DNA of 29,365 bases, from the IMG/VR virus record IMGVR_UViG_2693429774_000014; one strand, written 5' to 3'. Source of the stretch: a virus (taxonomy: Duplodnaviria > Heunggongvirae > Uroviricota > Caudoviricetes). Position 1 is the stretch's first letter. Each line of letters begins with the position of its first letter. Below the pieces are notes generated by a model. That model made no database searches. It was not told the DNA's origin and worked only from the letters and a program-made list of their open reading frames with translations. Shown here piece after piece: positions 10,973 to 11,953 of the stretch. A program made the position numbers and the translations under genes.

Positions 10973-11702
10973 ACACTCAAAAAAAAGCTAATCTTCTATA
11001 ATAACGAAATTCAGCTGGCACAATTAAAGATTAATTGCCACCAATTTCTTGATTTTATAATTTTATCTAAATGTTTTTGATTAATCTAGTCCTAAAAGAA
11101 ACCTACTGCATAAATATTTATGCTGATGACCCACTCCCTGTTCGTTAACACATAGCAACGTTAGTAATGCATCCTAAGTGATCAATATTTTTGCTAGCTT
11201 CATCTGCTCGCTCAAAGGGAACTATAATGTTGGCTTGCGTGTGACTTGGCATGTTTAAAGAAGTGCTGGTGGTGACTGGTTGCTGTTTTCCATTTCCACA
11301 GAACAAAATCATAGAAACTATACCCAGTAGTTGTATTGAATCACTGACGAGACAGCCTCATATTTATCAGGACTGGTGTACGTCCAATACAGGAGGTTGT
11401 GGTGCTGGTTCTCAAATGTGCGCTGGCTATTGCTGCTGTAATAGCAATTTATTGTCTTGCTGTTGTTCTTATGGATCACCTTTCTGATTGATTTCATATT
11501 GGCGAGGTAACGGTAGTTAAGTAGAATTGCTGCGGGTGCTTGAGGCTATCTGCCTCGGGCATCAACACCAAAGGCAGATAGAGAAAAGCCCCAGTTAACA
11601 TTACGCGTCCGGCAAGACGCTTAACATTAATCTGAGGCCATATCTATGCTCTACACACGTAGGTTAGCCTCTTACGTGCCGAAAGGCAAGGAGAAGCAGG
11701 CT

Positions 11703-11858
11703 ATGAAGCAGCAAAAGGCGATGTTAATCGCCCTGATCGTCATCTGTTTAACCGTCATAGTGACGGCACTGGTAACGAGGAAAGACCTCTGCGAGGTACG
11801 AATCCGAACCGGCCAGACGGAGGTCGCTGTCTTCACAGCTTACGAATCTGAGGAGTAA
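11703..11858 (+). CDS. hok: Hok/Gef-family type I toxin (51 aa); an in-frame upstream ATG at 11646 would give a 70-aa form
   Basis: MKQQKAMLIALIVICLTVIVTALVTRKDLCEVRIRTGQTEVAVFTAYESEE matches the Hok/RelF family as I recall it (TM helix plus CEVRIR motif). Followed by an intrinsic terminator. Confidence 0.85.
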   Translation: MKQQKAMLIALIVICLTVIVTALVTRKDLCEVRIRTGQTEVAVFTAYESEE

Positions 11859-11926
11859 GAGACCCGGCGGGGGAGAAATCCCTCGCCACCTCTGATGTGT
11901 CAGGCATTCTCAACGCACCCGCATTT

Positions 11927-11953
11927 AACCCGCTTCGGCGGGTTTTTGTTTTT
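11927..11953 (+). terminator. Rho-independent terminator downstream of hok
   Basis: Hairpin AACCCGC-TTCG-GCGGGTT followed by a T-run (TTTTTGTTTTT). Confidence 0.7.

What the first reader, a model, noticed from the sequence alone, without database searches (positions are those of the whole stretch)
11490..11953. Solitary hok toxin with structured upstream leader and no relBE partner locus
The Hok ORF is preceded by a leader with a long inverted repeat (CTATCTGCCT ... AGGCAGATAG at about 11541-11580) typical of hok mRNA folding and antisense (Sok-like) control, and is followed by an intrinsic terminator. Unlike K-12 Qin, no relB/relE genes lie upstream; the AT-rich cargo island is there instead. 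An in-frame upstream ATG at 11646 could act as a mok-like leader.
Basis: partly seen in the sequence, partly recalled or inferred. Interest (0 to 1): 0.4.

Follow-up and report, generated by a model that had tools for sequence, protein, structure and literature searches.

The report
Ordinary intact prophage hok/mok/sok module
This is a complete, well-known type I toxin-antitoxin cassette (Hok toxin, mok leader reading frame, antisense Sok RNA) carried by a lambda-like prophage of E. coli; the lack of relBE next to it is the usual state, and the K-12 relBE-hokD arrangement is the exception.

Summary
A 51-aa Hok/Gef toxin (11703-11858) sits behind a ~169-nt structured leader. An in-frame 70-codon mok-type ORF starts at 11646, and an intrinsic terminator lies at 11927-11944. 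The window has no relB or relE.

The interpretation needs correcting. The toxin is not solitary. The minus strand carries a Sok-type antisense gene, with -35 at 11689-11684, -10 at 11666-11661 and the RNA at about 11654 to 11584. This gene is homologous to the annotated sokC of K-12 and 94% identical across the locus to the experimentally validated hokW-sokW of Sakai prophage Sp5.

All the textbook hok mRNA elements are present. These are tac, the metastable hairpin, the ucb anti-SD, the mok SD, dcb, fbi and the 3' protective hairpin. They are pairable in 83 homologous loci, with compensatory changes.

K-12 hokD is the truncated form: homology starts only at the hok SD. The relE-hokD junction occurs in 1165 of 5426 complete E. 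coli genomes. The intact leader occurs in 4214, usually in several copies.

Verdict: already known, low interest. One possibly new side observation is that the 21 nt facing the Sok 5' tail are hypervariable among otherwise near-identical copies.

The parts
11499..11527 (+). hok/mok mRNA promoter: -35 TTGGCG (11499-11504), 17-nt spacer, -10 TAGAAT (11522-11527)
   Evidence: Consensus scan, 9 of 12 matches. Both hexamers are conserved in diverged copies. It sits in the same position as TATGAT upstream of the R1-type locus. Function is inferred.
11534..11950 (+). Full-length hok mRNA, about 415 nt. The 5' end is inferred at 11532-11534 and the 3' end in the T-run after the terminator.
   Evidence: The Rfam RF01794 match starts at 11534. 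MFE is -173 kcal/mol, z = -6.1 against shuffles. Module boundaries in other genomic contexts fall at about 11507/11515 to 11945/11953.
11534..11545 (+). tac (translational activator element), GGGUGCUUGAGG
   Evidence: It pairs with fbi in the full-length MFE and with ucb in 3'-truncated MFEs. It is nearly invariant in 83 loci.
11552..11563 (+). Partner of tac in the metastable hairpin of the nascent transcript
   Evidence: The MFE of the first 27-50 nt pairs 11535-11546 with 11552-11563. The helix is 92.9% pairable in 83 loci against 34-43% for slid controls, with one-sided changes only.
11546..11581 (+).
   Evidence: It is 95.7% pairable with two compensatory pairs, for example A-U to G-C in 9 loci.
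11586..11596 (+). ucb (upstream complementary box, the anti-SD of mok), AAGCCCCAGUU
   Evidence: It pairs with the mok SD region (11629-11638) in the full-length MFE. It pairs with tac when the 3' end is removed at 11895-11900. The tac/ucb helix is 99.1% pairable.
11597..11628 (+). Long hairpin between ucb and the mok SD. On the minus strand the same palindrome forms the Sok terminator hairpin. It carries 18 nt that K-12 hokC lacks.
   Evidence: The helix that includes ucb/SD has 6 pairs with compensatory changes. The long form is present in most of the 83 loci.
11634..11637 (+). mok Shine-Dalgarno sequence, GAGG
   Evidence: It lies 8 nt upstream of ATG 11646 and is invariant in 83/83 loci.
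11646..11858 (+). mok-type leader ORF, 70 codons, in frame with hok (an N-terminally extended Hok)
   Evidence: It is homologous to the annotated MokC of K-12 and matches PHROG 251 'MokW-like host killing' at E=1.8e-32. The ATG is conserved in 82/83 loci although the frame relative to hok varies.
11639..11659 (+). Loop of the SD/dcb target hairpin, which is the complement of the Sok 5' tail. Hypervariable island.
   Evidence: pi = 0.31 with 17 haplotypes in 63 close relatives, against 0.018 at hok third codon positions.
11667..11671 (+). dcb (downstream complementary box), GCCUC, which pairs with the mok SD GAGGC in the processed mRNA
   Evidence: This pairing is in the Rfam consensus structure. 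It is pairable in 100% of 83 loci. Its placement inside the Sok promoter region agrees with PMC9841398.
11688..11693 (+). hok Shine-Dalgarno sequence, AAGGAG
   Evidence: Read directly from the sequence; 9 nt before ATG 11703. Conserved with R1 and K-12 hokC/hokD.
11703..11858 (+). hok toxin gene, 51 aa: MKQQKAMLIALIVICLTVIVTALVTRKDLCEVRIRTGQTEVAVFTAYESEE
   Evidence: Pfam PF01848 at E=1.2e-23. 50/51 identical to K-12 HokD. Annotated as hokD in identical RefSeq loci.
11841..11844 (+). TACG motif at Tyr47, the TadA A-to-I editing site reported for hokC/D/E (Tyr to Cys)
   Evidence: TACGAA is invariant in 83 loci. Editing of K-12 hokD at this residue is reported in PMC5630033. Not tested for this copy.
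11866..11887 (+). 9-bp GC-rich hairpin, the presumed 3' protective stem-loop of the processed mRNA
   Evidence: Present in all MFEs. About 98% pairable, with a compensatory G-C to A-U change in 17 loci. The role is taken from the R1 work.
11908..11920 (+). fbi (fold-back inhibitory element), UCUCAACGCACCC
   Evidence: It pairs with tac in the full-length MFE. The repeat finder reports a perfect 9-nt repeat 375 nt apart (I4). 98.4% pairable in 83 loci, with one compensatory pair. The tac and fbi sequences of the R1-type locus both differ from the window's while remaining complementary to each other.
11927..11950 (+). Intrinsic terminator of the hok mRNA: stem 11927-11944, loop TTCG, then a T-run
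   Evidence: Compensatory changes occur in the stem.
11661..11689 (-). Sok promoter: -35 TTGCCT (11689-11684), 17-nt spacer, -10 TAACCT (11666-11661)
   Evidence: Read. It is collinear with TTGCGC-17-TATCCT of the R1-type locus. The spacer is 17 nt in 83/83 loci; the hexamers are TTGCCT or TTGACC and TAACCT or TAATCT. It is 34/35 identical to the sokW promoter region of Sp5, where promoter mutations abolish antitoxin activity (PMC8621323). It falls below the threshold of the generic promoter scan.
11584..11654 (-). Sok-type antisense antitoxin RNA, about 71 nt: a single-stranded 5' tail, a long hairpin, then GGGGCUUUU
   Evidence: The annotated ends of K-12 sokC map to 11654 (5') and 11578 (3'). 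A 71-nt RNA starting at 11654 ends just after UUUU, matching the 71-nt sokW complementarity stated in PMC8621323. The fold is -31.8 kcal/mol, z = -4.65. Expression was not tested.

Best explanation
The region is a complete hok/mok/sok type I toxin-antitoxin module of the prophage hokD/hokW clade. It sits as a small cargo gene between the replication genes and the DUF968-RusA-Q genes of a lambdoid prophage, and it is regulated in the canonical R1 way.

Proposed sequence of events:
1. A constitutive promoter (11499-11527) makes a ~415-nt mRNA.
2. While the mRNA is being made, tac (11534-11545) is held in a metastable hairpin with 11552-11563.
3. In the finished full-length RNA, tac pairs with fbi (11908-11920) and ucb (11586-11596) covers the mok SD. 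The RNA is then neither translated nor bound by Sok.
4. Slow 3' trimming removes the terminator and fbi.
The mok SD shifts to a hairpin with dcb (11667-11671), whose loop presents the mok start.
6. The ~71-nt Sok RNA is transcribed from the opposite strand (about 11654 to 11584). Its 5' tail binds that loop and blocks mok translation. Because hok translation is coupled to mok, this blocks hok as well. The duplex is cut by RNase III.
7. When Sok synthesis stops, the stable processed mRNA is translated, and Hok (or the in-frame 70-aa Mok-Hok) inserts into the inner membrane and depolarises the cell.

What is shown here: the sequence elements, their pairing potential and their conservation. What is inferred: transcription, processing, Sok action and toxicity, all taken from R1 hok/sok and Sp5 hokW-sokW.

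Most likely biological role, by analogy with hokW-sokW: Sok falls after prophage induction, and Hok helps lysis and phage release. I put this at about 0.45. Prophage retention and phage exclusion are the alternatives.
For: - Toxin: Pfam HOK_GEF at E=1e-23.
- Leader: Rfam RF01794 at 114 bits against a gathering score of 59, full length, on the mRNA strand. The same model hits the hokC, R1-type hok and Sp5 hokW leaders in the same orientation.
- Homologues: the alignment to K-12 hokC/mokC/sokC places the mokC ATG and the sokC ends on 11646, 11654 and 11578. The locus is 94% identical over 416 nt to Sp5 hokW-sokW, with 34/35 in the Sok promoter and 71/77 in the Sok RNA. Toxicity, Sok-dependent neutralisation and RNase III/Hfq dependence were demonstrated for that locus (PMC8621323).
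- Folding: MFE folding reproduces all three published conformations, namely the nascent metastable hairpin, the full-length tac/fbi plus ucb/SD fold, and the truncated tac/ucb fold. They match the model summarised in PMC9841398.
- Conservation across 83 homologous loci: the full-length structure is 95.8% paired against 38-47% for slid controls. It has 16 pairs with two-sided changes, a value reached by 0 of 500 shuffles. SD/dcb is 100% pairable.
- mok and Sok signals: the mok ATG is kept in 82/83 loci. The Sok promoter spacer is 17 nt in 83/83.
- Integrity: there is no stop codon or frameshift. The 471-bp region is identical in 12 RefSeq genomes.
Against: - Nothing was measured for this copy: no transcript ends, no toxicity assay.
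- The Sok promoter hexamers are weak by consensus, and the generic scan did not report them.
- Chromosomal hok loci tested by Pedersen and Gerdes did not give post-segregational killing or rifampicin activation, as cited. 'Intact by sequence' therefore need not mean 'active'.
- The host prophage looks partly decayed in the identical strain C7. Its integrase is frameshifted, and ydfD and a TerB gene have internal stops. That weakens the 'helps phage release' role for this particular copy.
- MFE predictions for some truncation points (11905, 11910) gave other pairings.
Confidence: 0.9

Rival explanations
1. This is a sequence-intact but physiologically inert chromosomal hok locus: a fossil carried along with a decaying prophage, as was proposed for the chromosomal hok loci of K-12 and ECOR strains.
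For: [quoted passage not shown] In the identical strain C7, the surrounding prophage has a frameshifted integrase and two genes with internal stops.
Against: Every regulatory element is intact and pairable. Hok is nearly invariant in the clade: pi is 0.009 at first and second codon positions. The module is carried by plaque-forming phages such as mEp460, HannyBb and Stx phages. A 94%-identical copy, hokW-sokW, is demonstrably active.
Confidence: 0.08
2. The module works by the same molecular mechanism, but its selected role is prophage retention (post-segregational killing of cured cells) or exclusion of superinfecting phages by abortive infection, rather than help with lysis after induction.
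For: R1 hok/sok stabilises plasmids and excludes T4 (reviewed in PMC10305079). hok genes are about four-fold enriched in prophages. The locus lies next to an AT-rich cargo island that encodes a SMEK-domain protein and a methyltransferase. This is a typical position for accessory or defence genes.
Against: The only direct experiment on a close prophage homologue found faster lysis and two-fold more phage released, with Sok lost on induction (PMC8621323). The bioRxiv survey found no enrichment of hok near known defence systems.
Confidence: 0.4
3. One reading: an orphan Hok toxin that lost its relBE neighbours and is controlled only by leader structure.
For: No relB or relE is present in the window. 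RefSeq annotates only 'hokD' here, with no sok or mok feature.
Against: relBE is an independent type II system, not the hok antitoxin. K-12 hokD is the truncated derivative that lacks the whole leader. The window encodes a Sok homologue with a conserved promoter and terminator. The leader-bearing form occurs in 4214 of 5426 genomes and the relE-hokD junction in 1165.
Confidence: 0.02

Closest known systems
hokW-sokW (mokW, ECs_1245) of Sakai prophage Sp5 / 933W-type Stx2 phages
   Same: 94% nucleotide identity over 416 nt (window 11515-11930). The Sok promoter region is 34/35 identical. tac, ucb, dcb, fbi, SD and most of Hok are the same, and mok is 70 codons and in frame. Experimentally it is a type I TA.
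   Different: It sits elsewhere in the phage, at the far right end next to an 8.4-kb ORF rather than between the replication and Q regions. The Hok C-terminus differs: VFVDYESEK in Sp5 against VFTAYESEE here. Of the 25 mismatches, 8 fall in the 21 nt around the mok start that face the Sok 5' tail.
K-12 hokC/mokC/sokC (gef)
   Same: Same element order. mok is in frame (MokC is 69 aa). The annotated sokC maps onto the window's antisense stretch. Rfam scores are 118 and 114 bits.
   Different: The K-12 copy is disrupted just downstream of the hokC stop by IS186, so fbi is missing. Its leader is 18 nt shorter in the hairpin between ucb and the mok SD. HokC is about 84% identical to this Hok.
K-12 hokD (relF) in the relB-relE-hokD operon of the Qin prophage
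   Same: The Hok protein is 50/51 identical. The 3' UTR, fbi and terminator are nearly identical. Both lie in a DicF/DicB-type lambdoid prophage.
   Different: K-12 lacks everything upstream of the hok SD: no promoter, tac, ucb, mok start or sok. relE abuts the gene instead. K-12 is the rearranged minority form, found in 1165 of 5426 genomes.
hok/sok (parB) of plasmid R1, the archetype
   Same: All named elements align: tac GGCGCUUGAGGCU, ucb AGCCCC, mok SD/ATG, the Sok -35/17/-10, hok SD, TACGAAUC and fbi. Rfam scores 87 bits on an R1-type locus. The mechanism is as summarised in PMC9841398.
   Different: The Hok proteins are diverged: the near-identical HokW is 44% identical to R1 Hok per PMC8621323. 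In R1 proper, mok is out of frame with hok (58-nt offset from the coordinates in PMC9841398), whereas it is in frame here (57 nt). R1 is on a plasmid, not a prophage. The 5' hairpin loop is longer in R1, and the hairpin between ucb and the mok SD is 18 nt shorter than here.

Membership tests
hok/sok (Hok/Gef) type I toxin-antitoxin system | A hydrophobic toxin of about 50 aa belonging to the Hok/Gef family | tested here: met
   PF01848 at E=1.2e-23, 82.9 bits against a cutoff of 22. 98% identical to K-12 HokD.
hok/sok (Hok/Gef) type I toxin-antitoxin system | A leader RNA matching the family's covariance model (sequence plus structure) | tested here: met
   RF01794 at 114 bits, gathering score 59, model positions 1-157 of 157, at 11534-11708 on the plus strand. 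The same orientation is found on hokC, R1-type hok and hokW.
hok/sok (Hok/Gef) type I toxin-antitoxin system | A cis-encoded antisense Sok gene with its own promoter and terminator that overlaps the mok translation start | tested here: met
   Met at the sequence level. The -35/17/-10 promoter is conserved in 83 loci. Hairpin plus U-tract folds at z=-4.65. It maps onto the annotated sokC and is 71/77 identical to sokW. Transcription was not tested.
hok/sok (Hok/Gef) type I toxin-antitoxin system | A mok leader ORF with its own SD that reads through the hok translation start | tested here: met
   SD GAGG plus ATG 11646 give a 70-codon ORF running through hok. The ATG is conserved in 82/83 loci although the frame varies: 64 in frame, 10 in +1, 9 in +2.
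hok/sok (Hok/Gef) type I toxin-antitoxin system | Long-range tac-fbi pairing between the 5' and 3' ends of the full-length mRNA | tested here: met
   12 pairs, 11534-11545 with 11908-11920, in the MFE. A perfect 9-nt repeat 375 nt apart. 98.4% pairable in 83 loci, mostly invariant with one compensatory pair.
hok/sok (Hok/Gef) type I toxin-antitoxin system | Alternative pairings ucb/mok-SD (closed form) and tac/ucb plus SD/dcb (open form) | tested here: met
   Both appear in MFEs of the full-length and truncated RNA. Pairability is 96.3% for the helix holding ucb/SD, 99.1% for tac/ucb and 100% for SD/dcb.
hok/sok (Hok/Gef) type I toxin-antitoxin system | A metastable 5' hairpin that sequesters tac in the nascent transcript | tested here: met
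   It is the MFE of the first 27-50 nt. It is 92.9% pairable against 34-43% for slid controls. There are no two-sided changes, so support comes from conservation only.
hok/sok (Hok/Gef) type I toxin-antitoxin system | Hok is toxic, Sok neutralises it, and the mRNA is activated by 3' processing | not testable with these tools
   These were shown for R1 and for the 94%-identical hokW-sokW. For this copy they are inferred.
relBEF operon arrangement (K-12 Qin hokD/relF) | relB and relE immediately upstream of hokD, with hokD lacking its own leader | tested here: not met
   No RelB or RelE homologue is in the window (best E=0.8). The full leader is present. K-12 homology begins only at about 11689.

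The most novel reading that the evidence does not exclude
The 21 nt around the mok start (11639-11659) form the loop that the Sok 5' tail recognises. They may act as a fast-evolving or shuffled 'address' that keeps the several hok/sok copies carried by co-resident lambdoid prophages from neutralising each other. Each prophage would then keep private control of its own toxin.

Evidence in 63 near-identical hokD/W-clade loci:
- This segment has pi=0.36 and 17 haplotypes, against 0.018 at hok third codon positions.
- Its diversity within the clade is 78% of its divergence from the hokC clade. The figure is 7% for third positions.
- Pairs whose other 372 nt differ by less than 2% still differ at 33% of the segment's sites.
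- Co-resident copies mostly differ.

A merely unconstrained loop is not excluded. The loop of the 5' hairpin also reaches pi=0.16, and the MK-like contrast gives only p=0.07.
Probability: 0.3. Interest if true: 0.45.

Novelty: already known. Interest (0 to 1): 0.12.

Why it matters
It matters little as a discovery. The locus is a textbook module, annotated as hokD in identical genomes, and 94% identical to an experimentally characterised prophage system.

Three practical points follow:
- RefSeq annotates only the toxin. The mok ORF and the Sok RNA are not annotated over the leader, which is why the toxin looks 'solitary'.
- K-12 is a poor reference here, because its hokD is the rearranged form.
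- The Rfam family named 'sok' is modelled on the hok mRNA strand, so a hit does not mark the antitoxin gene itself.

The hypervariable Sok-recognition segment would be of moderate interest if it proves to be a specificity code. It would bear on how many copies of one type I TA can coexist in a single genome.

Tried and rejected
1. dcb position. Truncated-mRNA MFEs paired the mok SD with CCUC at 11889-11892. I rejected this as the canonical dcb. The Rfam structure and PMC9841398 place dcb just downstream of the mok start, inside the Sok promoter (GCCUC, 11667-11671), and that pairing is 100% conserved.

2. Looking for hokW in Sp5. I searched the replication-to-Q region and the early-left region of Sakai Sp5 and found nothing. 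It lies at the right end of the prophage.

3. YUNR U-turn motif. I recalled this feature from memory for antisense target loops. Reading the 13-nt loop 11647-11659 (UGCUCUACACACG) shows no [CU]U[N][AG] motif. I did not pursue this, and the motif's position in hok mRNA was not checked in a paper.

4. Generic promoter and terminator scan. It did not report the Sok promoter or terminator. These were found by homology instead.

5. Diversifying selection on the Sok-tail segment. The MK-like table is only suggestive (p=0.07), and too few co-resident copies could be collected.

6. The small upstream ORF has no hit in Pfam or PHROGs.

7. I did not use the large protein-database searches or structure prediction. 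The family assignment was already unambiguous.
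Full report
**What is there**

The plus strand of 11490-11960 carries a 51-codon ORF. Its ATG is at 11703 and its stop at 11856-11858. The product is MKQQKAMLIALIVICLTVIVTALVTRKDLCEVRIRTGQTEVAVFTAYESEE. It matches Pfam HOK_GEF at E=1.2e-23 and is 50/51 identical to K-12 HokD.

An in-frame ATG at 11646, preceded by GAGG, opens a 70-codon ORF. A terminator follows at 11927-11944 plus a T-run.

The window has no RelB or RelE homologue. The 3 kb upstream (8200-11200) are 29-35% GC.

**Context**

The window is a lambdoid prophage. It is identical to a prophage integrated next to mtfA and a tRNA-Ser gene in E. coli strain C7. The gene order there is integrase, exonuclease, dicB, DicF, dicA/dicC, a ydaT-family gene, replication genes, the AT-rich cargo (SMEK-domain protein, methyltransferase, hypothetical protein), hokD, DUF968, RusA, Q, three tRNAs and the lysis genes.

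The 471-bp region is 100% identical in 12 RefSeq genomes. Similar sequence occurs in 4728 of 5426 complete E. coli genomes, with a median of 2 copies and up to 10. It is also found in plaque-forming phages, where it is annotated as MokW, hok or gef.

**The antitoxin is present**

Alignment with K-12 hokC/mokC/sokC places the mokC ATG on 11646. It places the annotated sokC 5' and 3' ends on 11654 and 11578 of the minus strand.

Upstream of 11654 on the minus strand lie TTGCCT (11689-11684), a 17-nt spacer and TAACCT (11666-11661). This is collinear with TTGCGC-17-TATCCT in an R1-type locus. In 83 homologous loci the spacer is always 17 nt. The hexamers are TTGCCT or TTGACC, and TAACCT or TAATCT.

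The predicted RNA has a free 5' tail and a long hairpin, and ends in GGGGCUUUU. It folds at -31.8 kcal/mol, z=-4.65.

The whole locus is 94% identical over 416 nt to hokW-sokW of Sakai prophage Sp5. The Sok promoter region is 34/35 identical and the Sok RNA 71/77. For that locus, toxicity, neutralisation by sokW from its own promoter, loss of protection in a promoter mutant, and partial dependence on RNase III and Hfq were shown experimentally. The paper states 71 nt of complementarity (PMC8621323). A 71-nt RNA starting at 11654 would end at 11584, right after the U-run.

The Rfam family called 'sok' (RF01794) hits the plus strand, 11534-11708, at 114 bits. This is the hok-mRNA sense strand. 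In K-12 the same model hits the hokC strand while the annotated sokC lies on the other strand.

**The mRNA switch**

The published model is summarised in PMC9841398. It has a full-length RNA closed by tac/fbi with ucb covering the mok SD. It has a 3'-processed RNA in which tac pairs with ucb and the SD pairs with dcb. It also has a metastable hairpin that holds tac in the nascent chain. Thermodynamic folding of this window alone reproduces all three:
- Nascent chain: the first 27-50 nt fold with 11535-11546 paired to 11552-11563.
- Full length: 11534-11950 pairs 11534-11545 with 11908-11920, and 11588-11596 with 11629-11638.

The canonical dcb (GCCUC, 11667-11671) pairs with the SD (GAGGC, 11634-11638) in the Rfam consensus structure.

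**Comparative test**

I aligned 83 distinct homologous loci from viral contigs and from species-representative genomes.
- The full-length structure is 95.8% paired, against 38-47% when partners are slid by 1-3 columns. It has 16 pairs with two-sided changes, a value reached by 0 of 500 shuffles.
- tac/fbi is 98.4% pairable but almost invariant, so it offers little covariation.
- tac/ucb is 99.1% pairable, SD/dcb 100% and the metastable hairpin 92.9%.
- The tac and fbi of the R1-type locus both differ from the window's, yet stay complementary to each other.

**mok**

The ATG aligned with 11646 is kept in 82 of 83 loci, but its frame relative to hok is not. It is in frame in 64 loci (a 69-70-aa extended Hok). 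It is in +1 in 10 loci, and in +2 in 9 loci, where a 19-codon ORF ends in ATGA on the hok start.

Conservation of the start but not the frame fits the published view that mok translation matters, not its product. It corresponds to the annotated MokC and MokW.

**relBE**

K-12 hokD aligns with the window only from the hok SD (about 11689) to the terminator. Upstream of that point K-12 has relE. K-12 thus lacks the promoter, tac, ucb, the mok start and sok.

The relE-hokD junction is found in 1165 of 5426 genomes, and the intact leader in 4214. Absence of relBE is the normal state. relBE is an unrelated type II system, not a partner of hok.

**Function**

Shown here: the sequence, pairing potential, conservation and homology to characterised loci.

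Inferred: constitutive transcription, slow 3' trimming, Sok blocking mok and hence hok translation, and membrane depolarisation by Hok when the unstable Sok disappears.

The closest experimental analogue lost Sok after mitomycin C in a RecA-dependent way, made HokW about 1 h before the endolysin, and released twice as many phage as the deletion mutant. I take help with lysis on induction as the most likely role (about 0.45). Prophage retention or phage exclusion come next (about 0.4), and an inert fossil is unlikely (under 0.1). The integrase frameshift in the identical strain C7 weakens the lysis role for this particular copy.

**Novelty**

None for the finding as stated. hok in prophages is catalogued: 3852 prophage and 2501 phage homologues, with four-fold enrichment (bioRxiv 10.1101/2025.08.07.668861). 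A 94%-identical module has been dissected experimentally.

**Side observation**

Within 63 loci of the hokD/W clade, the 21 nt facing the Sok 5' tail (11639-11659) have pi=0.31 (0.36 without the ATG) and 17 haplotypes. They are flanked by invariant SD and dcb. By comparison, hok third codon positions have pi=0.018 and the rest of the leader 0.053.

Diversity within the clade is 78% of divergence from the hokC clade for this segment, against 7% for third positions. Pairs whose other 372 nt differ by less than 2% still differ at a third of the segment's sites. Co-resident copies in the few genomes I could check mostly differ.

This could be a specificity code that insulates co-resident copies, or simply an unconstrained loop. 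The MK-like contrast gives p=0.07, and the 5' hairpin loop also reaches pi=0.16. I found no discussion of it in the papers searched.

Noticed in passing
window 11639-11659 (+), which is the complement of the Sok 5' tail: A hypervariable island between the invariant mok SD and dcb. It has pi=0.31-0.36 and 17 haplotypes in 63 near-identical loci, against 0.018 at hok third codon positions. Its divergence is uncorrelated with that of the rest of the module (r=0.12). It may be a Sok specificity determinant.
   Followed up: partly
window 11402-11491 (+); the ORF listing gives 11399-11491: An unannotated 29-30-aa hydrophobic ORF (VLVLKCALAIAAVIAIYCLAVVLMDHLSD) with a GGAGG SD, ending 8 nt before the hok -35. 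The peptide is conserved in about 20 viral loci, including a roughly 55%-identical variant. It is also present in phages Tritos, Evi, mEp460 and HannyBb. It has no Pfam or PHROG hit.
   Followed up: partly
alignment A2, columns aligned with window 11646-11703: The mok start codon is conserved, but its reading frame relative to hok differs among homologues: 64 in frame, 10 in +1 and 9 in +2 (a 19-codon ORF ending in ATGA on the hok start). An R1-type IncFII copy is in frame (57 nt), whereas R1 proper is offset by 58 nt.
   Followed up: yes
window 11534-11708 (+); L003 602-754: Rfam RF01794 'sok antitoxin' is modelled on the hok mRNA leader (sense strand, ending at the hok AUG), not on the Sok RNA. 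In K-12 it hits the strand opposite to the annotated sokC.
   Followed up: yes
window 11841-11844 (+): TACG at Tyr47 of Hok is invariant in 83 loci. This is the TadA A-to-I editing motif reported to recode Tyr to Cys in K-12 hokC, hokD and hokE.
   Followed up: partly
window 11597-11628 (+): The hairpin between ucb and the mok SD, which is also the Sok terminator hairpin, carries 18 extra nt relative to K-12 hokC and R1. The long form is typical of prophage hokD/W-type loci. A few prophage copies (L062, L087, L101, L129) have a short, different version.
   Followed up: partly
window 8200-11200: An AT-rich (29-35% GC) cargo island between the replication genes and hok. It encodes a SMEK-domain protein (8385-9284, +), a class I SAM methyltransferase (9599-10258, -) and a 235-aa protein with no family hit (10265-10972, -). 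It may be a defence or accessory insert.
   Followed up: no
window 4403-4454 (-), 15004-15250 (+), 16024-16196 (+): A DicF sRNA (76.7 bits), a cluster of three tRNAs (Ile, Arg, Arg in the identical strain C7) downstream of Q, and an STnc100 match (100.8 bits). All are typical of DicB/Qin-like and Stx-like lambdoid prophages.
   Followed up: no
L018, L024, L056 (genome contigs); H70 (phages): Near-identical E. coli hok sequence appears on very short contigs in assemblies labelled Acinetobacter idrijaensis (275 bp) and Xanthomonas pisi (431 bp). It also appears in a chicken-gut MAG 'Ca. Scatousia', whose flank is 99.8% identical to window 11100-11533, and in an 'Actinobacillus phage' record. These look like contamination, mis-binning or host mislabelling.
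   Followed up: no
RefSeq loci matching window 11534-11702: In RefSeq E. coli genomes the 169-nt leader has no annotated feature: no sok ncRNA and no mok CDS. This makes such loci look like lone toxins.
   Followed up: yes
window 11531-11539 and 11915-11923: The perfect tac/fbi complementarity extends 3 nt upstream of the assumed +1 (TGCGGGTGC / GCACCCGCA). The true mRNA 5' end may therefore be at 11531-11532 rather than 11534.
   Followed up: no
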